The notes: generated by a model not told the origin, from the letters alone. Shown: positions 15,022 to 57,532, counted from the stretch's first letter. The stretch: 64,000 bases of DNA from Trypanosoma brucei (GCA_000002445.1 CH464491.1:3936001-4000000); one strand, 5' to 3'. Numbers and translations are program-made.

Positions 15022-15873
15022 TTACCCAATTGTTGAATGTGAAGGGTTTGCTTTCACGGTGGAAATACCTTTTCTCCACGGCACGTTCACTCTACTACGG
15101 TAACGTTCTCTACGAAGGTAATCTCCGGTTAGATCCACTGGTTTTGTCGGATTTAAGCAAATGTCTTCGAGAGCCGAGTCGGATCCAAAACCGTCCAAAA
15201 CAGGCTGAGTTGGTGACTCTGCCGCAGATCCCGCTGGGAGCGTTTCATTGATTTTACTTAGTTGCTCCTTGTGAACAACAAGAAGTGGGCACGGACTCGT
15301 GTACAAGTTCCGCCACGCGTTTGGTACATCAACAGACTGTGTTGATGTCACGAAGTAGTTCAGCATACCTTTGGGAGCATACTGCGGGCTACCAACGCAC
15401 CACTGTGCATTATTTTCCGTCAAGGGTGGGACAGCGTGCTTAACATAGGGAGGATTTTGAGGTGCCTCCGTGGTCAATGTGCCCGCTGCAATTGGTTGAA
15501 TATTTCTCTCGTAATCCTCCACCTGACGGAAAAACACAGTCCAGTCCTCTTCTTCACTGGACCACATGATATGCACAACACAGAGACGAGCCGCTCCCGC
15601 GTCCGTGGACCTCACCTCTACCATCCGCGCACCGACGCGACGAGTAATGCCACCAATCTCAACAGCATCACTGCTTCCGATGATAGTTTCTTCATGAAGA
15701 GCTACAATGTAAAGGTGCTCTGTCTCAGGCGAACTGCGTACAACCATTTCAGTAGGCGTACTGTTCACTCGACAACGGGCGCCCCGTCTACAAAACCGTA
15801 CCTCTATGCATCGCTCCGTTGTTGCATCGTCTACCCAATCACAACCAAGCACTTCGACACGGAAACGAAGCAT
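15022..15873 (-). CDS. Conserved hypothetical protein
   Basis: 283-aa ORF on the coding strand of the transcription unit, ATG verified (MLRFRVEV). I see no recognisable domain. Confidence 0.55.
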   Translation of the reverse strand: MLRFRVEVLGCDWVDDATTERCIEVRFCRRGARCRVNSTPTEMVVRSSPETEHLYIVALHEETIIGSSDAVEIGGITRRVGARMVEVRSTDAGAARLCVVHIMWSSEEEDWTVFFRQVEDYERNIQPIAAGTLTTEAPQNPPYVKHAVPPLTENNAQWCVGSPQYAPKGMLNYFVTSTQSVDVPNAWRNLYTSPCPLLVVHKEQLSKINETLPAGSAAESPTQPVLDGFGSDSALEDICLNPTKPVDLTGDYLRRERYRSRVNVPWRKGISTVKANPSHSTIG

Positions 15874-16681: not shown

Positions 16682-17715
16682 AGGTTCCGATAAAATAAAG
16701 TCACAACTTACACAAAGTGATCTGTGTGCCGTTCGTCAAGGGTAAACAGTTCTCTTCATTTTCGGTGCTGCACATGCCGTTGGTGGAAAGCCGTCAGAAA
16801 ACAAAAGAAGGGGAAATTGCCTCCACACAAAGAATCTTTCTCCACTCACATGGAACTCAAATCACTTTCTGGACTACGGTTGATCCATAAAGACGTTAAC
16901 TGCGGAGCCACAGTGCACTACTTTGGATACACACTGCATGGTTACCATTTATCAACTGAAAAGTCTTCCTTTACAAGAATACCTTCAGAAAAAAAAGTGA
17001 AATTAAGCGATAGGATGGCGGAAGGTGAAAATACCATAGGATCAGCTGTCAACAAAGACGCCACCTACTACACTATGTTCATACTGGTGGAAATTTCATC
17101 TACTTGTGAGGTAAAGAGACGCATTGAAGTAATACATCGATGTACAAGTTTGACAAAAAACTCAAAATACATCCGCTCCCCGCTTGCACTTTTCCCTTTC
17201 GTTATCGGTTCCCTAAAAAGCGGTAAACGTTGGATTGTTTTTGAAATACAACGAAGACACACACCATTTCCTTTGTTTCCTATAACTCATTATTTACATG
17301 TGCCAACTGCAGCAATCGGTTACAAAAATTCACTTGGTTAAGCTATACATAGTAGCTCGTAACATACAAAAAACATCAAAACGGTCCAATTGGACGACTA
17401 ACTACGACACACAAACGTGCTCTCCTTCAACCATATCAAAATGAAAACCCAGCGAAAAAAGATTCAGCAGCATCCCATGCTTCTCCAACGTCATAGTTTT
17501 GTGAGGTACACTAAAAAGAAAATCGTAGAAATTACACATCAGAATATATTTCGCTTTGTCCTTTCAATGAAACGAATGAACCCAGAACGTCGCACATCAG
17601 CATATGCAGCTGAATGGGACAAGAACGCCTTATCACAGAAAAGTCACAGATAAAGTCACATAGCATATAATGAGTAATTCTCACATACTTCCTACTTCCT
17701 CAACAATATTCCTTC

Positions 17716-20700
17716 TTACGCATCACCCTCACCAGTTGGTTGTTCGGTGGCATCTTCAGCCTGTTCTCCTGGTTGTTCAGTGGCATCTTCAGCTTGTTCA
17801 GCTGGTTGTTCAGTGGCATCTTCAACACCTTCAGCAGCAACTTGTTCGCCAGCATCTTCACTTGCAGGCTTCTTTGGAGAAGACCCAGTTGATGCCTCCT
17901 TGGGAATATCAGCCTCATCAAGTTCTTCATGCTCATCTGTTTGCTCAGCTGCAGTTTCTTGAGCAACCTCCTCGGCTGGTTGTTCAGTGGCATCTTCAGC
18001 TTGTTCAGCTGGTTGTTCAGTGGCATCTTCAACACCTTCAGCAGCAACTTGTTCGCCAGCATCTTCACTTGCAGGCTTCTTTGGAGAAGACCCAGTTGAT
18101 GCCTCTTTGGGAATATCAGCCTCATCAAGTTCTTCATGCTCATCTGTTTGCTCAGCTGCAGTTTCTTGAGCAACCTCCTCGGCTGGTTGTTCAGTGGCAT
18201 CCTCAGCCTGTTCAGCTGGTTGTTCAGTGGTATCTTCAGCTTGTTCTCCTGGTTGTTCGGTGGCATCTTCCGCCTCCTCAGCTGGTTGTTCAGTGGTATC
18301 TTCAGCTTGTTCAGTTGGTTGTTCAGTGGTATCTTCCGCCTCCTCAGCTGGTTGTTCAGTGGTATCTTCAGCTTGTTCAGCTGGTTGTTCAGTGGTATCT
18401 TCAACACCTTCAGCAGCAACTTGTTCGCCAGCATCTTCACTTGCAGGCTTCTTTGGAGAAGACCCAGTTGATGCCTCTTTGGGAATATCAGCCTCATCAA
18501 GTTCTTCATGCTCATCTGGTTGTTCAGTGGCATCCTCAGCCTGTTCAGCTGGTTGTTCAGTGGCATCTTCAGCTTGTTCAGTTGGTTGTTCAGTGGTATC
18601 TTCCGCCTCCTCAGCTGGTTGTTCAGTGGTATCTTCAGCTTGTTCAGCTGGTTGTTCAGTGGTATCTTCAGCTTGTTCTCCTGGTTGTTCAGTGGTATCT
18701 TCAGCCTGTTCAGCTGATTGTTCAGTGGCATCTTCAGCCTGTTCAGCTGGTTGTTCAGTGGCATCTTCAACACCTTCAGCAGCAACTTGTTCGCCGGCAT
18801 CTTCACTTGCAGGCTTCTTTGGAGAAGACCCAGTTGATGCCTCTTTGGGAATATCAGCCTCATCAAGTTCTTCATGCTCATCTGGTTGTTCAGTGGCATC
18901 CTCAGCCTGTTCAGCTGGTTGTTCAGTGGCATCTTCAGCTTGTTCAGTTGGTTGTTCAGTGGTATCTTCCGCCTCCTCAGCTGGTTGTTCAGTGGTATCT
19001 TCAGCTTGTTCAGCTGGTTGTTCAGTGGTATCTTCAGCTTGTTCTCCTGGTTGTTCAGTGGTATCTTCAGCCTGTTCAGCTGATTGTTCAGTGGCATCTT
19101 CAGCCTGTTCAGCTGGTTGTTCAGTGGCATCTTCAACACCTTCAGCAGCAACTTGTTCGCCGGCATCTTCACTTGCAGGCTTCTTTGGAGAAGACCCAGT
19201 TGATGCCTCCTTGGGAATATCAGCCTCATCAAGTTCTTCATGCTCATCTGTTTGCTCAGCTGCAGTTTCCTGAGCAACCTCCTCAGCTGGTTGTTCAGTG
19301 GTATCTTCAGCCTGTTCAGCTGATTGTTCAGTGGCATCTTCAACACCTTCAGCAGCAACTTGTTCGCCGGCATCTTCACTTGCAGGCTTCTTTGGAGAAG
19401 ACCCAGTTGATGCCTCTTTGGGAATATCAGCCTCATCAAGTTCTTCATGCTCAGCTGGTTGTTCAGTGGCATCCTCAGCCTGTTCAGCTGATTGTTCAGT
19501 GGCATCTTCAACACCTTCAGCAGCAACTTGTTCGCCAGCATCTTCACTTGCAGGCTTCTTTGGAGAAGACCCAGTTGATGCCTCTTTGGGAATATCAGCC
19601 TCATCAAGTTCTTCATGCTCATCTGTTTGCTCAGCTGCAGTTTCCTGAGCAACCTCCTCAGCTGGTTGTTCAGTGGCATCTTCAGCCTGTTCAGCTGGTT
19701 GTTCAGTGGCATCTTCAACACCTTCAGCAGCAACTTGTTCGCCGGCATCTTCACTTGCAGGCTTCTTTGGAGAAGACCCAGTTGATGCCTCCTTGGGAAT
19801 ATCAGCCTCATCAAGTTCTTCATGCTCAGCTGGTTGTTCAGTGGCATCCTCAGCCTGTTCAGCTGATTGTTCAGTGGCATCTTCAACACCTTCAGCAGCA
19901 ACTTGTTCGCCAGCATCTTCACTTGCAGGCTTCTTTGGAGAAGACCCAGTTGATGCCTCTTTGGGAATATCAGCCTCATCAAGTTCTTCATGCTCATCTG
20001 TTTGCTCAGCTGCAGTTTCCTGAGCAACCTCCTCAGCTGGTTGTTCAGTGGCATCTTCAGCCTGTTCAGCTGGTTGTTCAGTGGCATCTTCAACACCTTC
20101 AGCAGCAACTTGTTCGCCGGCATCTTCACTTGCAGGCTTCTTTGGAGAAGACCCAGTTGATGCCTCCTTGGGAATATCAGCCTCATCAAGCTCCTCATGC
20201 TCTTCAACCTCCTGTCTAGGTGTCACCGATCGTGACGACTCAGCCGACGACTCATGAACAGGCGGGTACTTGTTGGCCTCTCTTGCTTTAGCCTCCGCAG
20301 CCTCCCTTATCTTCTCTGGTAAGCACGTCAACATGCGCATCAGTGGAGTGCAGCTGGTTCCATGCCACGCTATCGTCGCGGTAAGCTTACCATATGGTCC
20401 ATATGATTCTCGTGTACACTCGAGAGTCTTCTCCCAAAGCTCCTTTTGCTCTTCCTCCTCAATGAAATACCGTTCTGCTGTCTCGCACCGACTCGTTGAA
20501 TACAACCGTACGCCGTACATATCAAACAACCAGCGGAGCATACATTTCCATTCCTCCAGCTCCTCCGCCTCAACGACAGCACGGGAGTCTAGGTGCTCTT
20601 CCTCGAAAGTTTTTTCTTTAACAGGGCCTTTGGTACGTTCAACGCACTGACGGCGGAAGAACTCAGGTGGAGCGTAGCGAAAGACGCCACGTCGGATGAC

Positions 20701-21234
20701 GACACGCTGGTCTGCCTCAGTTTGCTGTATGCGTTCACGGACCTCATTCTCATGATCAACGAGTTGACGTAGACACACCAGCAAAAACCACGAATGCGAA
20801 CATTCCTTTTCAACTTTCTCACGGAGGCGATGCTCGACACCACTGAGCCACGTTCGCAACTCTTCTTCCTCCTTTAACAGCGTGAAGTACTTCGCCCGTG
20901 GAAAGGCACGGATGAGTGGCTGCTGCCGCACCAATGGATTTTGTTGACGCTGCCTTATCAACTCTAGGTTGGTTTGCCTCATGCCCAGCGTAATTAAACG
21001 TGTGAGACTCGGCTCGAATTTTAGAGTCGGGTTACGCTCGATTTCTTTCCTCTCGGCAATCATCACACCTCGTTCATGCATAAGATCAGCGAGTGCGTGG
21101 CTTAACTGTTCTTCAATAGCCTTTCGCTCCCCTGTCTCCTCACGGCACAAACGCAGCAGTAACTCATGGTGAGTTGGAACGCGTGAAACAAGAGAGTTAT
21201 AGTAATCGGCAAAGTTCTTGTGGACAACGGCCAT
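17716..21234 (-). CDS. Acidic tandem-repeat protein (N-terminal ~330-aa unique domain followed by a ~800-aa E/D/Q/A/T/P-rich repeat array)
   Basis: 1172 aa, ATG verified at 21232-21234. The repeats are ~58-120 aa, e.g. DEHEELDEADIPKEASTGSSPKKPASEDAGEQVAAEGVEDATEQPAEQAEDATEQPAEEVAQETAAEQT, with a variable number of 8-aa (24-bp) sub-repeats AEDATEQP / AEDTTEQP. Confidence 0.85.
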   Translation of the reverse strand: MAVVHKNFADYYNSLVSRVPTHHELLLRLCREETGERKAIEEQLSHALADLMHERGVMIAERKEIERNPTLKFEPSLTRLITLGMRQTNLELIRQRQQNPLVRQQPLIRAFPRAKYFTLLKEEEELRTWLSGVEHRLREKVEKECSHSWFLLVCLRQLVDHENEVRERIQQTEADQRVVIRRGVFRYAPPEFFRRQCVERTKGPVKEKTFEEEHLDSRAVVEAEELEEWKCMLRWLFDMYGVRLYSTSRCETAERYFIEEEEQKELWEKTLECTRESYGPYGKLTATIAWHGTSCTPLMRMLTCLPEKIREAAEAKAREANKYPPVHESSAESSRSVTPRQEVEEHEELDEADIPKEASTGSSPKKPASEDAGEQVAAEGVEDATEQPAEQAEDATEQPAEEVAQETAAEQTDEHEELDEADIPKEASTGSSPKKPASEDAGEQVAAEGVEDATEQSAEQAEDATEQPAEHEELDEADIPKEASTGSSPKKPASEDAGEQVAAEGVEDATEQPAEQAEDATEQPAEEVAQETAAEQTDEHEELDEADIPKEASTGSSPKKPASEDAGEQVAAEGVEDATEQSAEQAEDATEQPAEHEELDEADIPKEASTGSSPKKPASEDAGEQVAAEGVEDATEQSAEQAEDTTEQPAEEVAQETAAEQTDEHEELDEADIPKEASTGSSPKKPASEDAGEQVAAEGVEDATEQPAEQAEDATEQSAEQAEDTTEQPGEQAEDTTEQPAEQAEDTTEQPAEEAEDTTEQPTEQAEDATEQPAEQAEDATEQPDEHEELDEADIPKEASTGSSPKKPASEDAGEQVAAEGVEDATEQPAEQAEDATEQSAEQAEDTTEQPGEQAEDTTEQPAEQAEDTTEQPAEEAEDTTEQPTEQAEDATEQPAEQAEDATEQPDEHEELDEADIPKEASTGSSPKKPASEDAGEQVAAEGVEDTTEQPAEQAEDTTEQPAEEAEDTTEQPTEQAEDTTEQPAEEAEDATEQPGEQAEDTTEQPAEQAEDATEQPAEEVAQETAAEQTDEHEELDEADIPKEASTGSSPKKPASEDAGEQVAAEGVEDATEQPAEQAEDATEQPAEEVAQETAAEQTDEHEELDEADIPKEASTGSSPKKPASEDAGEQVAAEGVEDATEQPAEQAEDATEQPGEQAEDATEQPTGEGDA
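17740..20215. repeat. Hierarchical tandem-repeat array inside a coding region (24-bp sub-repeat tggttgttcagtggcatcttcagc nested in ~174/210/366-bp macro-repeats, about 10 macro-units)
   Basis: Recurrent landmarks such as cctcatcaagttcttcatgctc occur at ~17910, 18122, 18488, 18854, 19216, 19426, 19600, 19804, 19978 and 20175. Macro-unit length differs by multiples of 24 bp. Confidence 0.9.
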
Positions 21235-22309
21235 GTCTCCGCTTTACTTGATGTAATACCGAATAATAAAAAAACTGCAGTGGGTAAGTAGAGAAGTGGT
21301 AGTCCGACAACGCCCTTTTTTTTTCTCCCTCTTTCTTTGGTTTCCTCAAGAATAAGTGTTCTTCGTGAGCGGCCCCCAACCCGTATTGCCACGTGCGTGG
21401 TATATGATCAATGCTTGTTTTTGCTTCGCCACTCTCTTCCTTTTTTTGAATGTTACTCTTTAGTCAATACAATAAGAAGATTTTTAAAATTTTTTCTGTC
21501 TCTGCTCTCTTTACACTCCTGGAAATAAAGTGTGTTTGAAGCAAGGGAGTCAACCGCAAGGCAGAATTATTGTTAACAAGTTACAGCATGCAGAATAAGT
21601 TTGGTGCAGCAGCGACGCGGATATAAAAATTAAGACGCGTTATTTTAAATGAAAACAGAAGTAAATTGATAAGGAGAAAAACAGTTGGCGTGAGCCTCCT
21701 TCGGGCAGCGGGGACGGTACAAAATATACAAGTAAATCATGAACGTTTGCACGAAAGGGAGAAGAAGCCATGCCACATGCACACCTTTAACTTATTTTCA
21801 CTCTTTCGCTGTTTCCCTTTCTTCCTTCCATGTTGAGAGAACATTCCCAGAAACTCGCTAGTTTTCATAAACTACAAATATATAAACAAACATATATATA
21901 TGTGTGTGTGTTACGTGTGCTTGCTCTCGACAAAATAAGACAAATCATTGTGTATCACTTTACACGTACGTATGTGCCTTAAACCCTCTCCCCACACCTC
22001 AAGGCACCGCAGCAAAATGCCGCAGAAGGTCAGGGAGGTAAGCGCATTTAAAAGGTAAATGGGACAAGCAACATCCTGCTCCAGTCGCAAAAAGATAGAA
22101 GTTTGACAATTAATACAGAACAAACGAAAACAAAACCAAGGTATAAAAAATGGATCCCAACACTTCCGAAATAAACTCCTTTTACCGTTCAGCCGCTGTG
22201 CTCTGCAGAGCATTGACGACCAAACCGTTACTGTGGTGAACAGTACTTCGACCTCCACCCCTTCTCCAAATGAACTTACCAGTCTGTGAAGAACCCGCAC
22301 GCACAACGC

Positions 22310-22598: not shown

Positions 22599-24320
22599 TT
22601 AATTAAGGGGGTTTAAATGTCGCATACACCGCGGTTGCGCAGCGAAGCTAAGACTAGAGAGACGAAAGTTAAGTGGGTCCAGCGACAATTGCTCGACGTC
22701 CCAACCAACCGCTTGAAGAGACTTCCTCAATTCGCCTCCTCGCTTCAACCAAAGCGACTGTTCCCCGTTGCAGGAACGAAGGAAACGACGAAGTTCCGCT
22801 AAATCATCGGCATGTTGTAGCAGTGCAGTGTACGCAAGAAGGTACGCAGTCAGCAGATGCAATGAATCGCACTCCTGATGGACGAAAAGCACCAACCGCT
22901 TGCCCAACACTTCAGATGTAGGAACATTTTTCTTCTTTGAGAAAAACCACTTACTGATTCGTTGTGTCAGCTGTGGTTTTTCCCATCGATGCCAGCGGTC
23001 CAGAAGTGATAGGGGGGCAGAAGGCTCCCAAAGGGCAAAAAGAAACATTTCTGAGGAACACAAGTACACAACATCTTCATCGAGAGAAGAGTACCGAATG
23101 CGGATCTTTCCGATTGGTGGATTTACGTAGAGAAGCCCTATGCGGTCGTTACCATCGGATCTCCCTCTGTCTATCATCCGGAGTCCAATGGCATCACTTA
23201 CCTCCCGTGGCGATAATACACGTCCCCTCTGGTGACCCTCCTCTCGCATGTAGAAGCGAAGGATCACGGAGAGGGTAGTTTCATTCAATATGCGAAAGGC
23301 TATATTACACATGGACAAATGAGAAATCGCTAAATTTGCACCACAGCACATAAGCACCGTAGCAAGTTGGGCCGTCACCGATGGTACTAAAGATGTGTAT
23401 GCAATTCCCAGTGCCGTTGAGACGGTGTAGATAACCATTCCAAAAGAGTTGAACTTCTTCGTGAGTTCCGCCAGGTTGTTACTGATGGCGAAGTGTTGCA
23501 GAGCGGAGGCTCTCGTCACCAAAAACATAAGCGACGCCGACTGCCGCACACACGAGGTTAGGATTGCGGCTGCAAGCAGATGATTTGGTACTGTTGTCGG
23601 AATAATCATCTCAGCTATGACGGAGAGATTGTGCAGCGCTACAGAAAAAACAAACCAAAACTTCGGCCTGTTTTCGTACGATATGACGCGATTTGCCAAA
23701 TACGCAGCGGCTAGGGCGGGGGCAAGATCTTTCAGCATCCATAGTTGTGGTGAAGATGCAAGTAAAAATCCATTAAGAATCGACTGATATCCAATTGATG
23801 AAGCAAAACTCGATACAAAGCTGCTACACAGGGAAAGAAGAAAATACCGTCTAAACCCCTCTCCACACGAATCAGGATACCCTGCAGGCATCCCAAATAA
23901 GTGCAAACGCTGCAAAAGCGACTCATTGCGCCGTGATGCAAGCCTAACTTCGAGAGGATGTGCGACCACAGTCTCCCACGAATAATTTACGTTACATTGC
24001 GAAAAACCAAGCTCGGATGGCGTGAGTGAAACCTCCCTTTTCTGTTTGTTGGAGTGGTTATACGAAGTGACTACAGAGGCATGAGATGAGTATCCCCCTT
24101 TGGTACCATCCCTAGGGGAAATAACAATCCGTTGTGACTGCGGTTCACACGGAAATGAAGTGTCAGTTACGCAAGAGGCCACTGCTCGACTTCTGTTACT
24201 GCGTATACCCCCATTCAGCGGCGCCATATGACGTATCCGCAACAATGTTGGGCCCACATAATGGTTAGACGCGTGACGGCGCACCGTCCCACACAGACTG
24301 CAGGCAACCAAACGCATCAT
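22599..24320 (-). CDS. Conserved hypothetical polytopic membrane protein (possibly DUF647/RUS-like)
   Basis: The listed ORF starts at GTG. The minus strand upstream of 24320 shows a polypyrimidine tract plus AG (cacuuuuuuuuuccuugugcgcuuacacucacag) directly followed by ATGATG (MMRLVAC...), so I place the start at 24320. It has multiple hydrophobic helices. The family guess is weak. Confidence 0.65.
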   Translation of the reverse strand: MMRLVACSLCGTVRRHASNHYVGPTLLRIRHMAPLNGGIRSNRSRAVASCVTDTSFPCEPQSQRIVISPRDGTKGGYSSHASVVTSYNHSNKQKREVSLTPSELGFSQCNVNYSWETVVAHPLEVRLASRRNESLLQRLHLFGMPAGYPDSCGEGFRRYFLLSLCSSFVSSFASSIGYQSILNGFLLASSPQLWMLKDLAPALAAAYLANRVISYENRPKFWFVFSVALHNLSVIAEMIIPTTVPNHLLAAAILTSCVRQSASLMFLVTRASALQHFAISNNLAELTKKFNSFGMVIYTVSTALGIAYTSLVPSVTAQLATVLMCCGANLAISHLSMCNIAFRILNETTLSVILRFYMREEGHQRGRVLSPREVSDAIGLRMIDRGRSDGNDRIGLLYVNPPIGKIRIRYSSLDEDVVYLCSSEMFLFALWEPSAPLSLLDRWHRWEKPQLTQRISKWFFSKKKNVPTSEVLGKRLVLFVHQECDSLHLLTAYLLAYTALLQHADDLAELRRFLRSCNGEQSLWLKRGGELRKSLQAVGWDVEQLSLDPLNFRLSSLSFAAQPRCMRHLNPLN

Positions 24321-25831
24321 TAAACCTGTGAGTGTAAGCGCACAAGGAAAAAAAAGTGTGTATGTGTGTACACTGTGACGATACATGAGGGAGCAGTGTG
24401 TCTCCACGTAAAACACATAATAGTATTACGTTTGACAAATGAACAGGAGGGAAAAATAATGAGAAAGGCAGGCGAAGACATATGGCGTCGTAACCCTCCC
24501 TCCAAAAACCGAAACTCGCATCTTCTAATCACTACATCTGAACCCGCAACAACTCAGCCCGGACAAAATGTATCTTAAAAGCCTCCCTCCCTCCTTTTGT
24601 CTCCTATTTGCATGTATCATCGTTCCGTTACTTCTTTTCTTCCTTCGGAGGTCATTCATCATAAAAATGTGTCCCAACCTGTTTAAGTAACAAGTTCACG
24701 TTATTTTTATGTTTCTCCCCTTCCCCTCCCTCCGTCGCACACCAAGGTTTCTTCACACGAACATTCATGCTCATGTGAAAATACAATAACATCCTCCCCC
24801 AACAAAAAAAAAACAACAAAAAATACACCGCAGCAGCCACTAAAACAGTTGTATACATGTGTGCATGGCACACCATTGTACCTGCAATTGAAAGGGAAAA
24901 GGAGGAAGCTCATGAACGCGTCCGATTGAGGCCTTTAAGTGGGAAACGGAACGGTCCCCGTTTTCGTTCTGCAACTCTAATTAAAACAGCACAAACTGTC
25001 GCGGGTGTCATTGGTCGTGGCAAACACAACAAAAATTAAAAAAAACAGAACAAAAAAAACCGTTCGGACTCCAGACAAAAAAAAATGACAGTAGTATTGA
25101 ATAGAGTGAAGATACCCTTGTGGTTCCCTCTCCTATCTTTGACATAGCCGTCATGCCGAACGCAGTGGCGTTACATTTGTCAAACTGAACGGATTGTTTG
25201 GGATCAATAAACCGAATCAAAAATAACAGTGAGAAACTAATCGAGGTAAGCACAGAGCAGGAATACATCGGTGCGGGTGAGGTAAGTAAAGGCCCTGAAT
25301 GCGGCACGAGAAACGAAAAAGAAAAAGCCCAGCAGCAGCACTGCACAAAAAGCAACTGCCATAGACGAATTGGAGCATAACGCACATTGCAAAAATTGTA
25401 CAACGAAAATCATATAACAGAGAAAGAAAAAAAACATCGAACAAACATCATTCCCACCAAACCAAACTATTCTTTACACAGTTTTCTACCTTCCTACCCC
25501 GTCAGATTTTATTCTACTCTACATTTTGTGTTATTTGAACTCTCTCTCTCTCTCTCTCAAACACTCTTTTTCTTTTTTACTCTTTCGTCTATCCATCAAA
25601 TTTTCGTTTGTGATTCCGTATTTATGTATATTCCGCACAGACTTTTCTTATATTCTCCTTTTTCCCTTTTGTATCTTTTTCCTCACTCCTCTCCTGCTAC
25701 ACCAACACAACTTCCCCGTACCTCCCCGTCCTTGTCCCCCGTATGATCGAGTGCACAAACCCCTTCCGACCCGCCCCCCGAAAAAAAAAAGACAAAAAAA
25801 AAGGATAGCATAAGTAATTCACTGCGGGGCG

Positions 25832-28003
25832 CTAAAAATCTAGCCAGCTGGCACCTTCATCTTCTTTCGCGGGGGGATCTTCGGATTCACCTGCAACCTT
25901 CTCATTATCGTTCGGCGCGGCTCCATTATTTCCGGATGACCCTGAATCTCTATGTGTATCCGTTCCGCCACCTGTAGAAGCCACGATTTCAGACGAGCTC
26001 TTTTCCCCTGCTTCACCTGGCAAAGCGGTTTCACTGGTTTCCGAGTAATCATCAGCGTTTTTCCTGGAGGCCGAATACGATTTCGGGGCGTCCTCATCGT
26101 AGTCATCCCTTTGGCTCGCATACTCGTCAGACCCCTGTCCATCCGTCTGTTTGGAACTTTTGCTCTTCGCCGAATCACCGCCATCTCCCCCCGCCGACTC
26201 CCCTGTTGCTTTCACGCCTCCAGGTGCAACGTCATCGACCGAGCCGCGTTTTCGGGGCTGCGAGTTATTACGAGCCGCACTCTGAGGAGTTTCATCACTA
26301 AGCAACTGAGAAGTTGTGTTGCTCCTTCGAGCTTCGTCTACCCGCCGCTTGACTTCACCCAGCGGGTCATACACCTTTGCACCCGGTTTTCCGCCCCCGT
26401 TATCGGTATTAGAACTGCGTTGGTTACCTTCGTTTGACCCTATCCTTGGGGACGGATCCCCACCCCTCTGTTCGAGGTTCCGCGCCACATCACCCCGAGG
26501 AGTTGTAAAGCTCTTGTCCACAGGTTCACGTGTTGGTGAGTTAGCAGTCTTTTGCCGATCAGCCTTTGAGGTCAAACGGTATATTTCGTCCCTCAATTCT
26601 CTTATTTTTGCTACATAGTATGCACGAGATTCCTTGTCGTGCCGGCTTCCCACCCTTCCACCACTAGAGTCAGACATATCTCCCCGACTCTTGGCTTTGA
26701 GGCGAGAAAGCTGCTTGTGCAGTTCGCAAATAGTTTCTGCCTTCCATCGGTATTCCTCGAACAAAGTCCGTGTGCCTTCATCGAGATCGGTGGGGGGTTC
26801 CCATTCCTTGGCTTCACGTACCTGTTCCTCCAACCTTTCCACACGTTTCTGAGTATCCTTCCGCATCCTTATTGCCGAAACGGCGTCTCGACGCCGATGA
26901 TCAAGTATTCGCCGCGCAAGTACCGAGTTGGCACGTATTTCATCAGCTAGCTGCTTAAACACCTTTTTCGGATCCCCCGTTTCGGAGGTGTTTACCAACA
27001 ACTTTTCGTTACTCCGTATGGACAGCAACAATGCGCGGCGCTCTTTGCTAAGCTCTGCAATGTCATTCTTGCACTCTTGAATAAGTTTGACGTACACGTG
27101 CATTTGCTTAATGCAATAAACCTTCCTTTGCAGAAAGCATTGCCGTTCAAGAAGCTCATCTCTCTCCCTCAGTAATTCACGTCGGGTGCCCTCGCGACTC
27201 AACATCCGCTGGAAACTAGCAGCGGCGGGTCTTTGGTATTGTTTCCACATTGTCCTGTTTTGGGAGCGACATAAAGTAGTATTCCTTCCCTTTTGAAGAA
27301 TTGAACGTTGTGCTTCCAACTTCAAACGAAGTTGATCATTTAACAAAAGAAGGTCGTTAAGTTCCTCTTTGGTAGACACAGAGGTAACCTGCTGGTCAGC
27401 CATCGCGTAGGCCGCTCCACGGGTTTGCCCAGTCTCGGCAGAGGGTCGTGTGGTCGGTTTACTGTCGCTGCCTGCGTTAGAATCATCACCAGCGCTCCGT
27501 GCGTGTGGTACGACATGTTTTTTCACCTCTGGACGCTTCTTCGGGGGAGTGTCACTTGAAGCAGACGAACTACCCCCATCGTCAGAAGACTCGTGGTCGC
27601 TGGAATCGTCTTTTCTCCTTGAGCTAAGGTAAGTTCCAGTGCCATTTTTGCCACTTCGCCGCCGACCTTCACCGGATCTATTACTTCCAGATGAACCCGA
27701 CCCACTGCCCCTTCTACTACCAGAGGCACTCGACGCGCCGCTCTTGTCACTGCCTTCGGAAGCAGCCAACACGCTGCTCTTCCTTCTGCTTGTGGAGACA
27801 TCCGATTCCGTGTATTTTTTACCGCTGTCCGACTTGTCTGACCCACCGCTCCCTTTACTCGACCCTGATGATGCACTCGACGCACTTCGAGAGCCATTCT
27901 TGCTTTCATCATACTCATCTTCGTAATCATCACCGTTAGAGGATCCACTTCCAGACCTCTTCGAGGAGCTATCACTCTCACTCCCTGACTCTGATGAGCT
28001 CAT
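25832..28003 (-). CDS. Ser/Arg/Asp-rich low-complexity protein with central coiled-coil
   Basis: 723 aa, ATG verified (MSSSESGSESD). The termini are extremely S/G/D/R-rich. Heptad-like coiled-coil runs from ~aa 230 to 450 (LKLEAQRSILQK...VERLEEQVREAKEW). Confidence 0.8.
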   Translation of the reverse strand: MSSSESGSESDSSSKRSGSGSSNGDDYEDEYDESKNGSRSASSASSGSSKGSGGSDKSDSGKKYTESDVSTSRRKSSVLAASEGSDKSGASSASGSRRGSGSGSSGSNRSGEGRRRSGKNGTGTYLSSRRKDDSSDHESSDDGGSSSASSDTPPKKRPEVKKHVVPHARSAGDDSNAGSDSKPTTRPSAETGQTRGAAYAMADQQVTSVSTKEELNDLLLLNDQLRLKLEAQRSILQKGRNTTLCRSQNRTMWKQYQRPAAASFQRMLSREGTRRELLRERDELLERQCFLQRKVYCIKQMHVYVKLIQECKNDIAELSKERRALLLSIRSNEKLLVNTSETGDPKKVFKQLADEIRANSVLARRILDHRRRDAVSAIRMRKDTQKRVERLEEQVREAKEWEPPTDLDEGTRTLFEEYRWKAETICELHKQLSRLKAKSRGDMSDSSGGRVGSRHDKESRAYYVAKIRELRDEIYRLTSKADRQKTANSPTREPVDKSFTTPRGDVARNLEQRGGDPSPRIGSNEGNQRSSNTDNGGGKPGAKVYDPLGEVKRRVDEARRSNTTSQLLSDETPQSAARNNSQPRKRGSVDDVAPGGVKATGESAGGDGGDSAKSKSSKQTDGQGSDEYASQRDDYDEDAPKSYSASRKNADDYSETSETALPGEAGEKSSSEIVASTGGGTDTHRDSGSSGNNGAAPNDNEKVAGESEDPPAKEDEGASWLDF

Positions 28004-28600: not shown

Positions 28601-29560
28601 TTACTTGGCATCTAGAATACGGCTCAACTCGGATTTCTGTTCTAGCGTGAGAAATCCTGGAAATGTTGTGTCACACTCGACGATGAGGTCGCCACGCGGG
28701 TTAGAGGGCTCGTCATTACGTGGAAGTCCTTGGCCAACGACGCGACGGCTGTACTTTGGGTGCACGATTTCATCAATGAGAACCGCAACATCAGTGCCTT
28801 CCATCGTTTGTACGGTTAGGGTTACGCCACAGAGTGCCTCCCTAAGGGTAATGGGCACCCTCACGACAAGATCGTCACCTTCACGGCGGAAACGCTCATG
28901 TGGAAGTAATTCCAACACCACGACCACATCACCACGTGCCCGGCCCTCCTCCCAGTCGCCCTTACCGTCAACAACAAATTTATCTCCCGCATGTGCACCT
29001 TTCGGCACGCGGAGCTCAAAGAACTCCTCCACCACCGTTTCGTTGCCCTGGCGGACAAAACTGCACTTCCAAGACGCTCGCCGTACGGCACCGTAATACA
29101 CATCCTCTAGCGTAACGGGCAGCTGCACCTCGATGGATGGTGCCTTCACGAGACTCTTGGGGATCACAGCAGTACTACTGAAGAAGTTGTGTCTATTGTT
29201 GCGTAGTCCATTGATCTCCCCAATCACCTGAAACGGGTTGTCAACACCAAAGAAACTCCGAAACACAGCATAGGGATCTATCGCGTCAAGATCAATCCCA
29301 CCAGGAATGCCCTGCGCGCCCGTCCCACCATGCCGAACACCCTCCTCGCCATACAGGTCGTAGATGCCTCGTGCTTTGGGGTTTGAGAGCACGACATATG
29401 CCTGTGAAACGTGTTTGAATTGCTTTTCCAGTGCAGCTGGATCAGGGTGATCCGGATTGCATTGTGGATTCACCGCCATGGAGTGGCGACGGTACGCCTT
29501 AGCGATTGCATCGTCCTCCGCATCGTGTAAGATTCCGAGAACATCGTATAGATCGGCCAT
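28601..29560 (-). CDS. DnaJ/Hsp40 co-chaperone, type II-like (J domain plus DnaJ C-terminal domains, no zinc finger)
   Basis: 319 aa, ATG verified. The N-terminal J domain DLYDVLGI...AYRRHSMAVNPQCNPDHPDP contains the HPD tripeptide. The C-terminal DnaJ_C features are GDLIVECDTTFPGFLTLEQKSEL. Confidence 0.88.
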   Translation of the reverse strand: MADLYDVLGILHDAEDDAIAKAYRRHSMAVNPQCNPDHPDPAALEKQFKHVSQAYVVLSNPKARGIYDLYGEEGVRHGGTGAQGIPGGIDLDAIDPYAVFRSFFGVDNPFQVIGEINGLRNNRHNFFSSTAVIPKSLVKAPSIEVQLPVTLEDVYYGAVRRASWKCSFVRQGNETVVEEFFELRVPKGAHAGDKFVVDGKGDWEEGRARGDVVVVLELLPHERFRREGDDLVVRVPITLREALCGVTLTVQTMEGTDVAVLIDEIVHPKYSRRVVGQGLPRNDEPSNPRGDLIVECDTTFPGFLTLEQKSELSRILDAK

Positions 29561-33861: not shown

Positions 33862-35118
33862 AGCTTCTCTTTTTTTTTCTTTTTTTTCTTTTTTTTTGTT
33901 TTATGTGTGTTGCTATTACCGTTTCCGCTAGAGGTTGGTTGGAGTCGGTGCCACTGATCTTGGTCTTGATATTTATTTATTTATTTATTCGTTTTCTGTG
34001 CGATCACTTGTACCGCTTACTTTTTTTTTTTTTGATGTTGTTGTTTTTGTTTAAGTTTCTCCACGTGTATTTTAACCAGCACCTCACTGTAAGCACCGGT
34101 TGGAATGCCCCAAGCTAAAAAGTGTCAACTCCTCAAGCCTCGCTAGTGCGATAAATAAACTTATTTTTTTTTCTTTTCCTTTGTTTCTTCCGTATGTTTG
34201 TGTTGTGTCTTACCTTTAATGAACTGATTTGATTTTTTGTTTTCTTGTGAAGTTCATAAAATGGAAGAAAGTACGAAAGAAATATTCCGAGAGGGACAAA
34301 AAAAGCAGAATGAAATCACTTTTTTTTTTAAAAAAAAAAGAAAGAAAAAAAAAGGATATAAAAGCGCAGGGTTTTGGACAAAGGGTAAAAGCACCAAGAA
34401 AGGAAGGTAATATGGGGAGAAATAAATACATTTCATGACGCTGCAAAGTATGACTACTACATACACAAAAAAGTTTTCGAAAGGAAAAGAAAAAAACAAA
34501 TGGGGGTAATGACGAATTATTTCTTTTTTGTTTGTTCGTTTGTTTGTTTGTCTCATGACTGCTTCCTTTTTTGTTTTCTTCTTCTTTACTGTTGTTGTTG
34601 TCGTTTACAGCTCTGTCTTCTTTGATCAAAAATGAAAAAAAAAATAATAATAAGTGCTCATAAGCATCTGCTAGAGGTGTATAAGAAAAAACGTACAAAA
34701 TATATGTATATATATATATATATATTTAAATACTTTTTATATTTCGGAAACGCGATGCGCGCGTAAATAGAAGGAAAAAAAGTAAAAAAAAGACGAGGAG
34801 AGAACGGGAGGGAGAAAAAAAAAACAAGATCGAAACTAGAAAAAAGTAAGGCTGAAACGAAAGGATTTGACGCTGATTTGTTTCATATAAATCACGTACC
34901 TGTTTCTGATTTATAGTTGTGGGAATTCGTTTTGTGAGGCATAATTTGAAGAAGGTCAAAGCGAGCGGGTGAGTGAGTGGAGAGGTGTGTGTGTGTGTGA
35001 GGGGGGAGAAGAGATATATAAAAAAAGAAAAAAAGAAAAAAACACCCCCACACCTGGTTTGTATCACAACAACGTTAAGTTTTTTTTAAAAAAAAAGAAA
35101 AAAATGAAAAAGGGGGCA

Positions 35119-35160
35119 TATATATATATATATATACATACATACATACATACATACACA
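35119..35160. repeat. Compound microsatellite (TA)n followed by (CATA)n
   Basis: atatatatatatatatatac atacatacatacatacatac, inside the long gene-free interval. Confidence 0.9.
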
Positions 35161-37153
35161 TACACTTATATATTTATATATTTATATAAATATGAAGTTG
35201 TTTCATCACTTTCCCCACACATACACACACTCCTCTCCCCCTCCCCCCTCTTCCCATCATTCGTCATTGCTCCCTCAGCAACAGAGGGTCAATCGCTTTA
35301 AGAAAGAAAAACAAAACAAAACAAAAGCACCATCAAAAAAAAAACGAAGAAGCAAATTATGCAAGTCACAAGCGTTCGAAAAAAACAAACGTAAATATGA
35401 ACTTGCGTCTTACTTCTTGTCGCTGGCACCACCGTTACGTCTTCTTTCTTTTTTTTTCTTCCGTTTTTTTTCTTTCCTCTCTCTCATCGATTGTCGAATC
35501 ACCCGCCCCGGAAACGAGGAAAACATACACAACAACAACAATAATAATTATTATTATTATTATTAAATAATAGGGGGAAAAAAGAGGGAAAAAGCTAACA
35601 ACGAAAAACAAAACGCACGCACTCGCAAGACACATCTATGCAAGTGACAATGAAATTTCTATTAGAGATGAACTGAAAAACATCTATCCAATTGTTCAAT
35701 CACTCTTCTTCTTTTTCTTCTTCTTTTCCTTTCCTCTTATATGCAGACAAGTACATAACACATACGCGTACATAAATGTAAATACATTCATAGATCATAA
35801 CCGTTTGCTCATACGATCAGAAATATATATTTGTCTTCATGTTAGTATTTGTTTATTTACGTGTAAAGATATATATATATATATAACAGAAACAAGAAAA
35901 CAATAAGTAAATAGATATAAACCAAAATGGTCACAACCTCACTTACACCTTCTCATCCATTTATGCTTTCGCGATATTTTAGCAACGATGTTGTGATTTG
36001 TCATGTTTCATTTATCTCACGTTTTGCAGATATTCATTTATTTATATGTTATTTTGCATTTTGCTTCTCTCTTTTTTTTTCTTTTTCCTTTTTTATTTTT
36101 CTTTTTTCTCTTGCCTCCCCTTTTCTCTCCATTTTCTCTTATTATCTCTAAATTTCTTCAACATCCACAGGCATTTCTCCACCACCTCTCTTGTCTCCAC
36201 CCCTTCCTTACAATCAACTGACTGTGGAGTGCAGCAAACTTTAGAAGGGAAAAAAACAATAATAATAATAACACGCCACATCATTCCTCCTTTCAATTCT
36301 TTTTTCATCGTTTTCTCTTTCTTTTCTTTTCTTTTCTTTATCTCAGTCATTCATTTTATTTATACTTTAACATAGTTTTCTCTGATTATTTTTTATTTGG
36401 TATTATTTTGTATATTTACACATTTTATTCATATATCCACTGGCGGCCGACATTTATGTTGCTTTTGTTGAGATTCGAGACTGTTCTTTTTCCTTTGTAA
36501 TAATACAAATTTTGTGACAAAAAAATCAGTGTTACTGTTGTTGTTGTTCCTATTATTATTATAATATATATTATTATATATATACAAAACAATTGGTTTA
36601 CGAAACATATACACATATATTTTTAAAAAAAAGAAATAAAATATATGGTAGATGAAGAAAAAAAATTAACTAAAAAGAAGTGAATGACTGAGCGTATGAA
36701 GGATATGATGCCCAACGGAAGGAAAAATGGTAGAGGGAAATAAGGAAAAGGAATGAGGATACGAAGAGAACAAAAAAAATTCATAAGTCATACAATCCCT
36801 GAAATATATATATATATTTTTATTTATTTACACAACTTGCAATGCGTACCGATGAATAATAACAATAACAATATAATCGAAAAAGATTACCTACAGGTGG
36901 AAAATAACACCCCCCCCCCTCCCCCTTCACTCACCAGGACACCTCTGCTGATGAAACTGCTTGAGAGATTTTGTGATAAGTGTGAGCAAGCTCAAAAAAA
37001 AAAAAATGAACACAGTGAAAGAAAGGGATATGCAACTAATTTATTGGGGGAGGGGGGTTCCGGGAGACATGCCGTCACATCCACACAAAATGCATAGGAA
37101 ACGCTTCCACCCCACACCTCACACCCATCCCTTTGTGTATGCTGGCATTACAA

Positions 37154-42888: not shown

Positions 42889-42914
42889 GCGGTCGTAGGC
42901 CTTTCTACTCGTTC

Positions 42915-42943
42915 CATATATATATATATATATATATATATAT
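42915..42943. repeat. (TA)n microsatellite immediately upstream of the coiled-coil protein start codon
   Basis: atatatatatatatatatatatatatatat. It is responsible for the spurious YIYIYIYIY N-terminal extension in the ORF track. Confidence 0.95.
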
Positions 42944-44027
42944 TTCACAAAGGTGTGAGAAAAGGAATGATTATATAAATGGTAAGGCGCCAGTGCAAGA
43001 GTTTCCGTGTGCACATATATAAATACTTACCCAACAACACTTGCGTAAGAAATAATTGAAGATAATATCTTTAAAAGAAAACACTTCACGACGTTATCAG
43101 CACTGCACGGGTGAGCACACCACACACTCACATTTTGACAGCACGACAACAAAAAATGCAAGAATTCGTGCCGGCAATATATATAAAAAAAGAAGTTAAA
43201 CGGAGAAGTGGTGAAAAAATGGAAAAAAAAGGCAAATAATGTTTAATAGTGAAAAAGAGGCCCTCTAACGGTTGGCAGTAAGGGGATGAAAGGGAGAAAC
43301 GGGTAAACGGAAAAAAGGGAATGATAAAACTGACAGCACTGACAGTTCCCCTATCCCTTTGCACTAAAAACGAAGCTGTAGGGAGTAAATAGGAGCTTTA
43401 CACACAAAGACACAAACATACACACACACAAAGAAAAAAACAACTCCAGTGTAATTTCACCAAGTCGCAGCAGGAAACAGCGGTAACGCTCATTAGCCCT
43501 TCACTTACTTCAGGTGTTGTAAATCTTACAAGTATTTGGACGGTACAAACCGAGAGGTGGGTGAGCAAAAGAAAGAATAACAATAATAAATGAAATATCC
43601 CTCTCTTCCCACCACCTCCTACACATTATCTATCGTCTCTCTCCTTTGTGTCCCCCCCTTTTTTTCTCTCCTACTTGGTCATGGTATAAGTTCACTACTC
43701 CAAAACAGAAAAGAAAAGAGAAGAGAAAAAAAGCAGAAACAACATACACATACACATAATACTCCCCTCCTCCCTCCCTCATCTCATCTCATCTCATCTC
43801 CTCTCGTGGATTGTGTGGTTGCAGTGGAGTTACCTCCGGCACAATAATACCCGGTGGTTTGTCGCCCTGTCGTCTCACTTCATAATCCGCTGAATCAAAA
43901 AACTGCTTTTGTCCCGGTTGCTGAAGATTACGCAAGCGGGGGTCGCGTTTCTTTGGCATCTTCACACCAGGAGGAGGTGAAGCATTGTCAGACATCACCA
44001 CCTCAGGTAAACAAGAGCTGCTAAGGT

Positions 44028-57271: not shown

Positions 57272-57532
57272 CTGAATTTGTGGTAAACCTAAACGTAACA
57301 ACTTGCCGTTATGGCCAATTTCACGCTGGTGATGGACAATTACGAATGTGAGAGGGGAAGGAAGCAGGAAAGAGTCTACGTGGACGCAAGGGAAAACGTG
57401 TAGCAATACACGCACACGCTTTCATTCTCAACTGACCCCCACAAGATGGTTACAACACAAAAAAAAAAGACACTGAATGGTTGTTCGCTTCGACTCAGCA
57501 CGCTTTTCATGAGACACGCCGAGAGTCCTCAA

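What the first reader, a model, noticed from the sequence alone, without database searches (positions are those of the whole stretch)
17716..21234. Highly acidic protein gene built from a two-level tandem-repeat array
About 2.5 kb of this 3.5 kb CDS is a hierarchical repeat. A 24-bp unit encoding AEDATEQP/AEDTTEQP is present in variable copy number (2 to ~9) inside macro-repeats of ~174-366 bp. Each macro-repeat carries a conserved DEHEELDEADIPKEASTGSSPKKPASEDAGEQVAAEGVED block. The encoded domain is about 40% Glu/Asp/Gln, which predicts intrinsic disorder. It follows a unique ~330-aa N-terminal domain. The architecture (globular N-domain plus long antigen-like acidic repeats) resembles the repetitive cytoskeletal or flagellar antigens of trypanosomes, but I cannot assign it to a named family from sequence alone. 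Copy number here is probably unstable and may be under-represented by assembly collapse.
Basis: seen in the sequence. Interest (0 to 1): 0.6.

Follow-up and report, generated by a model that had tools for sequence, protein, structure and literature searches.

The report
Known trypanosome flagellar rod protein Tb5.20
This is the already-characterised Trypanosoma brucei paraflagellar-rod protein Tb5.20/ROD1 (Tb927.11.15100): a conserved helical N-terminal module followed by a long, very acidic, fast-evolving repeat tail, so the finding is real but not new.

Summary
The ORF at 17716-21234 (minus strand, 1172 aa) is real, and about 2.5 kb of it is a hierarchical tandem array. There are ten macro-units of 168-372 bp, and each starts with the block HEELDEADIPKEASTGSSPKKPASEDAGEQVAAEGV.

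The window is T. brucei brucei TREU927 chromosome 11. Published tagging primers and an sgRNA for Tb927.11.15100 map exactly onto this start codon. That gene (old ID Tb11.01.6740) is Tb5.20/"Rod1", cloned in 1994. In the literature it is a stable marker of the distal (outer) paraflagellar-rod domain, depends on PFR2, and was already reported to carry an 11-aa motif 53 times.

What I add:
- The conserved N-domain (about 310 aa) is an orphan module of three long helices. It is not globular and has no Pfam PFR or EF-hand domain.
- The family is small (40 representatives), and every named member is a trypanosomatid.
- Within Trypanosoma the tail is always strongly acidic and repetitive, but the repeat units are unrelated between lineages.
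- T. b. gambiense has a 938-aa version with the modules rearranged.
- An acidic-protein gel-shift equation predicts about 186 kDa, matching the published 180/200-kDa doublet. This argues against gross assembly collapse.

Novelty: already known. Interest: low.

The parts
17716..21234 (-). Complete CDS of Tb927.11.15100 (Tb11.01.6740), the PFR protein Tb5.20/Rod1. It encodes 1172 aa, 127.9 kDa, pI 4.05. The stop codon is at 17716-17718.
   Evidence: ORF listing. Neighbours match TREU927 chr11 proteins exactly. Published gene-specific oligos map here. Composition.
20305..21234 (-). Conserved N-terminal domain (aa 1-~310). It is all-helical, with three long helices at aa 22-67, 113-187 and 210-291, and carries the motif CMLRWLFDMYGV, invariant among the four Trypanosoma sequences aligned. 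I infer it is the module that anchors the protein in the PFR.
   Evidence: 44-49% identity to the T. rangeli, T. theileri and T. cruzi marinkellei orthologues. 40 family representatives in 1.84 billion proteins. AF2 pLDDT 80, pTM 0.26. No Pfam, PDB-sequence or Foldseek-PDB hit.
20200..20304 (-). Non-conserved linker (aa 311-345) between the N-domain and the repeat array.
   Evidence: Alignment conservation is lost after about residue 305-310.
17719..20199 (-). Acidic repeat array (aa 346-1172): 10 macro-units built from modules C1, C2, u (11 aa / 33 bp) and T. It is 34.3% D+E with net charge about -31 per 100 aa, and is predicted disordered.
19450..20199 (-). Macro-units 1-4: two near-identical 375-bp super-units (207+168 bp) that differ at 2 nt.
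19243..19449 (-). Macro-unit 5 (207 bp).
18139..19242 (-). Macro-units 6-8 (366, 366 and 372 bp), holding the long runs of 33-bp units (up to 9 per macro-unit). Units 6 and 7 differ at 1 nt. The 413-bp exact duplicate lies here.
   Evidence: (period 33, 28.7 copies over 18182-19135).
17719..18138 (-). Macro-units 9-10 (207 and 213 bp) and the unique C-terminal end ...TEQPTGEGDA.
   Evidence: The C-terminus is shared with the DAL972 orthologue.
21205..21291 (-). Start codon and 5' flank. This is the exact target of the published Tb927.11.15100 N-terminal tagging primers (21205-21234 and 21262-21291) and sgRNA (21242-21261).

Best explanation
The feature is the gene for Tb5.20/Rod1 (Tb927.11.15100), a known structural protein of the distal (outer) domain of the Trypanosoma brucei paraflagellar rod (PFR).

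Shown in the literature:
- The protein localises to the distal PFR domain.
- It needs PFR2 for incorporation, and PFC21 for normal distribution along the flagellum.
- It is added after inner-domain proteins and shows no FRAP recovery, so it is a stably built-in component.
- RNAi fragments for it are strongly depleted in bloodstream forms.

Shown here:
- The only part conserved across kinetoplastids is an N-terminal module of about 310 aa made of three long alpha-helices.
- The 827-aa tail is a polyanionic, low-hydrophobicity modular repeat. It changes rapidly by unequal recombination among near-identical DNA copies.
- In other Trypanosoma lineages the tail is replaced by unrelated but equally acidic repeats.

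Inferred mechanism: the helical N-module docks the protein into the PFR lattice, probably through coiled-coil-type helix packing with lattice proteins. The disordered acidic tail projects from the outer face as a hydrated, negatively charged brush or spacer, and possibly a low-affinity cation (Ca2+) sink. Its function would depend on bulk charge and length rather than on sequence, which would leave repeat identity and copy number free to drift.
For: Identity:
- Four neighbouring proteins are exact matches to TREU927 chr11 entries EAN80450, 80455, 80459 and 80461.
- The published Tb927.11.15100 primers and sgRNA map at 21205-21291 with 0 mismatches.
- Tb927.11.15100 is named 'Paraflagellar rod Tb5.20' and 'Rod1'. 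Tb5.20 = Tb11.01.6740.
- Portman 2009 reported an 11-aa motif 53 times in Tb5.20. I count 48 ED[AT]xEQx cores plus 5 AQETAAEQ variants, which is 53.

Role, from the literature:
- Distal-domain immunogold labelling and a 180/200-kDa doublet.
- Member of the PFR2-dependent cohort.
- Outer-domain marker, late assembly, no FRAP recovery, mislocalised in the PFC21 knockout.
- RIT-seq representation about 0.00 at days 3 and 6 in bloodstream forms.

Anatomy:
- N-domain conservation and family size.
- Three long helices, pLDDT 80 and pTM 0.26.
- Tail composition and disorder.
- Near-identical DNA copies.
- Module reshuffling between TREU927 and DAL972 while the N-domain differs by 1 aa.
- Acidic but unrelated repeats in T. 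congolense, T. theileri and T. melophagium, with mildly acidic non-repetitive tails in Leishmaniinae.
- The predicted gel mass of about 186 kDa fits the doublet.
Against: - As late as 2010 it was stated that it was 'still unknown' whether the 5.20 cDNA encodes the ROD1 monoclonal's antigen. Later papers simply equate the two.
- The anchoring role of the N-domain and the brush or cation-sink role of the tail are inferences. No truncation, binding or structural data were found.
- Leishmaniinae and deeper relatives manage with weakly acidic or neutral, non-repetitive tails. A highly acidic repeat is therefore not required for the family's core function and could be largely neutral.
- The low pTM means the tertiary arrangement of the helices is unknown.
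- The RIT-seq fitness signal could be inflated, because repeat-derived RNAi fragments are many and may cross-hit other 11-mer-bearing genes (PFC9, TbI2).
Confidence: 0.9

Rival explanations
1. The acidic repeat tail has no cellular function. It is a neutrally expanding low-complexity appendage, produced by slippage and unequal crossing-over, on a protein whose function lies entirely in the N-terminal helical module.
For: - Repeat sequence, unit length and copy number are not conserved between species or even subspecies.
- Leishmaniinae and deeper relatives lack repeats.
- Many short family members have no tail at all.
- Near-identical DNA copies indicate very recent turnover.
Against: - All six Trypanosoma tails examined, from T. 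brucei (two subspecies), T. congolense, T. theileri, T. melophagium and T. rangeli (T. c. marinkellei's was not measured), are 26-34% D+E with net charge -18 to -30 per 100 aa, despite unrelated units. This suggests a constraint on composition.
- All four variable sites in the 114-bp constant block across its 10 copies are synonymous.
- The reading frame is kept through 2.5 kb in two subspecies.
Confidence: 0.25
2. The repeats exist mainly as an immunodominant B-cell antigen, a 'smokescreen' released from lysed parasites, as proposed for other trypanosomatid tandem-repeat proteins.
For: - Tb5.20 was cloned by antibody screening of an expression library.
- The sister PFR repeat proteins I2 and I17 are recognised by sera of infected cattle and are diagnostically useful.
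- From general knowledge, tandem-repeat proteins are over-represented among trypanosomatid serological antigens.
Against: - The antiserum used to clone 5.20 was raised against extracted cytoskeletons, not produced by infection.
- The protein is intraflagellar and stably incorporated.
- No evidence was found that infection sera recognise it.
- Immune selection does not explain why acidity in particular is conserved.
Confidence: 0.1
3. The array as assembled is substantially an assembly artefact (collapsed or mis-joined). Its true period, order or copy number would differ greatly from what is in the window.
For: - Exact repeats of up to 413 bp, and super-units of 366-375 bp that differ by 1-2 nt, are hard to order with Sanger-era reads.
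- Other assemblies break at this gene.
- DAL972 shows a different arrangement, which could partly reflect assembly differences.
Against: - The reading frame is intact across the whole array.
- The same modules and the same unique C-terminus appear in an independent assembly.
- The 11-aa motif count matches an independent 2009 analysis, although that analysis used the same genome release.
- The predicted apparent mass of about 186 kDa falls within the observed 180/200-kDa doublet. The antibody work was mostly done in strain 427, not TREU927.
Confidence: 0.1

Closest known systems
Tb5.20 / ROD1 antigen of T. brucei (Tb927.11.15100, formerly Tb11.01.6740; Woodward, Carden & Gull 1994; Woods et al. 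1989)
   Same: It is the same gene. Locus, start codon, 11-aa motif count and predicted gel mobility all agree.
   Different: Nothing differs at the level of identity. Two earlier MEME-level claims, a PFR domain (PF05149) and an EF-hand motif in Tb5.20, are not reproduced with current Pfam even at E<=10.
Orthologues in other Trypanosoma species (T. congolense CCD16783.1, T. theileri, T. melophagium KAH9578682.1, T. rangeli, T. cruzi marinkellei)
   Same: They have the same N-terminal helical domain (44-65% identity) at residue 1 and a strongly acidic repetitive C-terminal tail. T. melophagium and T. theileri also have a two-level array.
   Different: The repeat units are unrelated in sequence and period. 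T. congolense has AAEEP pentamers. T. theileri and T. melophagium have SEKEE[QH]K heptamers between SEPTQESLPAEQPQEEYPQELEEEEHK blocks. T. brucei has the 11-mer.
PFR repeat proteins TbI2 (Tb927.3.5310) and PFC9 (Tb11.01.6510)
   Same: They are reported to share the 11-aa 'meme2' motif with Tb5.20 (19 and 10 copies), and they are PFR components.
   Different: They are different genes outside this window, and I did not compare them here. I2 antibody labels the whole PFR rather than the distal domain.
Major PFR proteins PFR1/PFR2 (Pfam PF05149)
   Same: They share the same organelle, are helix-rich, and Tb5.20 incorporation depends on PFR2.
   Different: No PF05149 match. PFR1 and PFR2 have no acidic repeat tail. 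Tb5.20 is a minor, outer-domain component.
Polyanionic disordered 'brush' or cation-buffer proteins (neurofilament side-arms, calsequestrin-type acidic tails); a functional analogy from general knowledge only
   Same: A structured anchoring module plus a long, highly charged, low-hydrophobicity disordered extension, whose composition rather than sequence is conserved.
   Different: There is no homology, and no binding or mechanical data for Tb5.20. This is an analogy, not a membership claim.

Membership tests
Tb5.20/ROD1 (Tb927.11.15100): identity | Located on T. b. brucei TREU927 chr11 between the EAN80455 and EAN80459 genes | tested here: met
   Exact protein matches of four neighbours to TREU927 chr11 entries, in the expected order.
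Tb5.20/ROD1 (Tb927.11.15100): identity | Published gene-specific oligonucleotides for Tb927.11.15100 match the start of the CDS | tested here: met
   Ntag_check_R matches 21205-21234 (reverse complement of ATG GCC GTT GTC CAC..., encoding MAVVHKNFAD). The forward primer matches 21262-21291 and the sgRNA 21242-21261, all with 0 mismatches.
Tb5.20/ROD1 (Tb927.11.15100): identity | 11-aa motif repeated about 53 times (Portman et al. 2009) | tested here: met
   Period 11 aa / 33 bp. 38 strict cores. 48 relaxed cores plus 5 AQETAAEQ variants give 53.
Tb5.20/ROD1 (Tb927.11.15100): identity | Apparent mass of 180/200 kDa on SDS-PAGE | tested here: met
   The model is 127.9 kDa with 29.35% D+E. The equation y = 276.5x - 31.33 gives about 186 kDa. 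This is a computed consistency check, not an experiment.
Tb5.20/ROD1 (Tb927.11.15100): identity | Localises to the distal/outer PFR domain and depends on PFR2 | not testable with these tools
   Literature only.
PFR1/PFR2 family (Pfam PF05149, paraflagellar rod protein) | Significant match to the PF05149 profile | tested here: not met
   No hit at E<=1 on the full protein or at E<=10 on the N-domain and tail separately. The 2009 claim rested on a MEME motif.
EF-hand calcium-binding proteins (PF00036 / PF13499) | Match to an EF-hand profile | tested here: not met
   No EF-hand family reported at E<=10.
Trypanosomatid tandem-repeat B-cell antigens | Long, high-identity in-frame tandem repeats in an abundant protein | tested here: met
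   TRF score 2995 and 2.5 kb in frame. 142 rpkm, about 7 mRNAs per cell.
Trypanosomatid tandem-repeat B-cell antigens | Recognised by sera from infected hosts | not testable with these tools
   5.20 was cloned with antisera raised against extracted cytoskeletons. No infection-serum data were found.

The most novel reading that the evidence does not exclude
The Trypanosoma lineages have independently re-invented long, often two-level, polyanionic repeat tails on the same conserved PFR-anchoring helical module: 11-mers in T. brucei, AAEEP pentamers in T. congolense, SEKEEQK heptamers in T. theileri and T. melophagium. This would imply selection for a charged, disordered 'brush' or cation sink on the outer face of the paraflagellar rod, with sequence and copy number free to vary. 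The classical 180/200-kDa ROD1 doublet would then simply be two alleles that differ by about one large macro-unit.
Probability: 0.35. Interest if true: 0.35.

Novelty: already known. Interest (0 to 1): 0.15.

Why it matters
As a discovery it does not matter much. The gene was cloned in 1994, sits in every PFR proteome, and is used routinely as the outer-domain PFR marker.

The modest value of this re-examination is practical:
- It corrects the repeat period to 33 bp.
- It shows that the only conserved part is an orphan three-helix module with no PFR or EF-hand domain, which is the obvious candidate for the PFR-targeting signal.
- It documents that the acidic tail is compositionally conserved but replaced in sequence between Trypanosoma lineages, and reshuffled between T. 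brucei subspecies.
- It reconciles the 128-kDa gene model with the 180/200-kDa bands.

These points bear on the design of tagging, RNAi and antibody experiments. Repeat-derived RNAi fragments and epitopes are strain-specific and may cross-react. The points also bear on how this locus should be read in short-read assemblies.

Tried and rejected
- **Full-text search for the repeat peptides** (AEDATEQP, DEADIPKEAS and others): no paper.
- **Exact look-up of the protein:** not in the collection. T. brucei-group orthologues were also absent from both homology searches, so identity had to be established through neighbours and published primers.
- **The look-up of encoding contigs with three neighbours** (25832-28003, 15022-15873, 22599-24386): nothing. 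The DnaJ protein and the DAL972 neighbour P0015 worked.
- **AF2 with a 4-sequence alignment:** pLDDT 44, unusable. It improved with 26 sequences.
- **Is constant block C1 a degenerate 33-bp unit?** Rejected. Its identity to the consensus is 9-15 of 33, against a background of 9.0 +/- 2.8 with a maximum of 18.
- **Internal repeats within the N-domain by self-BLAST:** none.
- **24-bp period:** rejected.
- **Other long ORFs across the array** (plus strand, and the alternative minus-strand frame): rejected as stop-free artefacts of periodic sequence. Only the acidic frame is contiguous with the conserved N-domain and with the published start codon.
- **Cell-cycle and UTR motif scan of the flanks:** only single TTGTACC hits, not pursued.
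- **Leishmania orthologue ID search for knockout data:** only the 2010 review.
Full report
**1. Observation**

The ORF listing returns an ATG-to-stop ORF at exactly 17716-21234 on the minus strand, 1172 aa. Every ORF of at least 250 aa outside the repeat array also lies on the minus strand, as expected for a kinetoplastid polycistronic unit.

Tandem Repeats Finder reports nested periods of 33, 168, 207, 366 and 375 bp over 17733-20202, with scores up to 2995. This is the only strong tandem array in the 64-kb window.

I anchored the protein on HEELDEADIPKEAS. This gives a 345-aa non-repetitive N-terminus followed by 10 macro-units of 69, 56, 69, 56, 69, 122, 122, 124, 69 and 71 aa, or 207, 168, 207, 168, 207, 366, 366, 372, 207 and 213 bp.

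The short unit is an 11-mer with consensus AEQAEDATEQP, encoded by GCTGAACAGGCTGAAGATGCCACTGAACAACCA. Three results establish this:
- Autocorrelation of the repeat region peaks at lags 11, 22 and 33 (0.35, 0.28, 0.28).
- Autocorrelation at lag 8 is at background (0.12).
- All 28 within-array spacings of the ED[AT]TEQ[PS] core are 11.

The rest of the description holds.

The repeat region is 34.3% D+E and 44.3% D+E+Q, with only 5.4% hydrophobic or aromatic residues and pI 4.05. It lies far on the disordered side of the charge-hydropathy boundary.

The copies are nearly identical at the DNA level:
- The 114-bp constant block varies at only four sites among its 10 copies, all synonymous.
- Units 6 and 7 differ at 1 of 366 nt.
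- Super-units (1+2) and (3+4) differ at 2 of 375 nt.
- The longest exact duplicate is 413 bp.

The array is best described as four modules:
- C1: HEELDEADIPKEASTGSSPKKPAS.
- C2: EDAGEQVAAEGV.
- u: the 11-mer.
- T: AEEVAQETAAEQTDE.

C1 is not a degenerate copy of the 33-bp unit.

**2. Identity**

Exact-sequence look-up of neighbouring ORFs shows that the window is T. brucei brucei TREU927 chromosome 11. The matches are the Hsp60-like EAN80450, the hypothetical EAN80455, the DnaJ EAN80459 and the acyltransferase EAN80461, all on a 5.26-Mb contig. By accession order the target should be EAN80456.

A literature search on candidate systematic IDs found Tb927.11.15100. An eLife 2023 reagent table lists its N-terminal tagging oligos. 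All three map with zero mismatches:
- Check_R at 21205-21234. This is the reverse complement of the first 30 nt of this CDS, which encode MAVVHKNFAD.
- The forward primer at 21262-21291.
- The sgRNA at 21242-21261.

Tb927.11.15100 is called 'Paraflagellar rod Tb5.20' and 'Rod1'. Tb5.20 is Tb11.01.6740 in the older nomenclature.

**3. What is already known (literature)**

- The ROD1 monoclonal (Woods et al. 1989) labels the distal PFR domain and detects bands of 180 and 200 kDa.
- Clone 5.20 (Woodward et al. 1994) was isolated with antisera against extracted cytoskeletons, and antibodies to it gave the same pattern.
- In 2010 it was still formally unknown whether 5.20 encodes the ROD1 epitope. 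Later work equates the two.
- Tb5.20 belongs to the PFR2-dependent cohort (iTRAQ log2 ratio -1.94). It was reported to contain an 11-aa motif ('meme2') 53 times, shared with PFC9 and TbI2.
- My relaxed count is 48 ED[AT]xEQx cores plus 5 AQETAAEQ variants, which also gives 53.
- Endogenously tagged Rod1 is used as the outer-domain marker. It appears in the new flagellum after inner-domain proteins, shows no FRAP recovery, and is disrupted in PFC21 knockouts.
- RIT-seq values quoted in the CTR9 paper are about 0.00 at days 3 and 6 in bloodstream forms, and mRNA abundance is 142 rpkm.

**4. New analysis: the N-domain**

The N-terminal 345 aa found only three homologues in the word-indexed search, from T. 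rangeli, T. theileri and T. cruzi marinkellei, at 44-47% identity. Conservation ends near residue 305-310, and the motif CMLRWLFDMYGV is invariant among these four sequences.

A profile search of 1.84 billion representatives found only 40 family members, 22 of them at E<=1e-30. In the 18 strongest hits the domain starts within the first ten residues. The named ones are all trypanosomatids: T. melophagium, T. congolense, Leishmania species and Novymonas. The rest come from unnamed SRA or metagenome assemblies.

Several searches found nothing:
- Pfam finds no domain in the N-terminus even at E<=10, and only a sub-threshold 'Mucin-like' match in the tail. The earlier MEME-level claims of a PFR domain and an EF-hand are therefore not reproduced.
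- The PDB has no relative by sequence profile.
- Foldseek against the PDB gave 0 hits.

AlphaFold2 with four sequences was unusable, with pLDDT 44. With a 26-sequence alignment it gave mean pLDDT 80 but pTM 0.26. The model has long helices at 22-67, 113-187 and 210-291, a disordered loop at 89-111, and no confident packing. The domain is therefore better described as a rod-like or coiled-coil-type helical module than as globular.

**5. New analysis: tail evolution and the assembly question**

Using the DnaJ neighbour and then the DAL972 neighbour as anchors, I recovered the syntenic T. b. gambiense DAL972 locus. Its orthologue (L005:5347-8163) is 938 aa and contains no Ns. Its N-domain differs from TREU927 at a single residue (I169M).

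The DAL972 array has 8 macro-units of 56, 56, 79, 170, 81, 46, 46 and 59 aa. The modules are combined differently: C2 recurs internally without C1, and C1 is followed directly by u. That pattern indicates unequal recombination among short homologous segments, not only gain or loss of copies.

Short-read assemblies fail at this gene. The T. equiperdum contig ends 26 codons into the array. The T. congolense orthologue is a partial protein on a 2.9-kb contig.

Tail composition across the family (with repeat sequences):

| Lineage | D+E | Net charge per 100 aa | Repeats |
|---|---|---|---|
| Trypanosoma (six tails measured) | 26-34% | -18 to -30 | Repetitive, with unrelated units |
| Leishmaniinae | 17-20% | about -7 to -11 | Non-repetitive |
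| Several deeper, unnamed relatives | about 9-13% | neutral | Non-repetitive, or no tail |

The Trypanosoma repeat units are:
- the 11-mer in T. brucei;
- AAEEP pentamers in T. congolense;
- 1-4 copies of SEKEE[QH]K between constant SEPTQESLPAEQPQEEYPQELEEEEHK blocks in T. melophagium and T. theileri, which is an independent two-level array.

On collapse, I used the published equation for acidic proteins, y = 276.5x - 31.33. With x = 0.2935 it predicts a gel shift of +58 kDa, so the 127.9-kDa model should run at about 186 kDa. This is within the 180/200-kDa doublet. Gross collapse is therefore unlikely. The doublet could be two alleles that differ by roughly one 122-aa macro-unit. That last point is an inference, and the antibody work was done largely in a different strain.

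**6. Mechanism**

Shown in the literature: the protein is a stable, late-assembled, PFR2-dependent structural component of the outer PFR domain.

Shown here: it consists of a conserved helical N-module plus a compositionally conserved but sequence-labile polyanionic disordered tail.

Inferred: the N-module docks into the lattice. The tail forms a hydrated, negatively charged brush or spacer, or a low-affinity cation sink, on the outer face. Its function would depend on charge and length.

Rival readings are scored in the report sections:
- The tail is neutral baggage.
- The tail exists mainly as an immunodominant decoy.
- The array is an assembly artefact.

**7. Verdict**

Novelty: already known. 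Interest: low (0.15).

The residual open points are worth only modest follow-up:
- What the orphan N-domain binds.
- Whether the acidic tail has a composition-dependent function.
- Whether the ROD1 doublet is allelic.

Noticed in passing
window 28601-29560 (-): This DnaJ/DnaJ_C protein is an exact match to EAN80459. The literature lists Tb927.11.15130 as the only flagellum-localising DnaJ protein in T. brucei and as the RSP16 (radial spoke) orthologue.
   Followed up: partly
window 40840-43014 (-), 46373-47278 (-), 56465-57415 (-): More flagellum-related genes sit in the same polycistron: a DUF4200 protein, a CFAP161-like protein and a cytidylyltransferase-like protein. The last may be the phosphopantetheine adenylyltransferase Tb927.11.15270 listed in the PFR proteome, but I inferred that ID from gene order only.
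   Followed up: no
window 17670-20219 (+), 17700-20207 (-), 18194-19273 (+): Long stop-free ORFs (849, 835 and 359 aa) run through the array in other frames and on the other strand. They are artefacts of the periodic sequence, not genes, but they could mislead ORF-based annotation.
   Followed up: yes
L002:18312-19426 (T. equiperdum CZPT02001308.1); P0019 (T. congolense CCD16783.1): The T. equiperdum contig terminates 26 codons into the repeat array. The T. congolense orthologue is a partial protein on a 2.9-kb contig. This gene is a recurrent assembly breakpoint.
   Followed up: yes
P0018 (T. melophagium), P0002 (T. theileri): These orthologues carry an independent two-level acidic array: 1-4 copies of SEKEE[QH]K between constant SEPTQESLPAEQPQEEYPQELEEEEHK blocks. 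It is unrelated in sequence to the T. brucei modules.
   Followed up: partly
literature: PMC2443814, table in the section 'Iron starvation': A 2008 microarray paper labels Tb11.01.6740 as 'Amphiphysin'. This conflicts with its identity as PFR protein Tb5.20 and is probably an array-annotation error.
   Followed up: no
P0036-P0055 (metagenome/SRA-derived family members): About 20 shorter relatives of the N-domain (290-400 aa) have an N-terminal extension (MLVPTPP...-like) and essentially no tail. They come from unnamed environmental assemblies. They may be orthologues from free-living euglenozoans or a paralogous subfamily.
   Followed up: partly
window 34001-36000: GC content dips sharply to 0.33, against 0.41-0.53 elsewhere in the window, in the stretch between the acyltransferase gene and the next ORF.
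   Followed up: no
window ~21722 (upstream intergenic) and ~16109 (downstream intergenic), minus strand: A single TTGTACC heptamer (a PUF9-type cell-cycle motif, from general knowledge) occurs in each flank of the gene. About 0.2 would be expected by chance in 3.2 kb. The gene was selected for tagging in a cell-cycle transcriptomics study.
   Followed up: no
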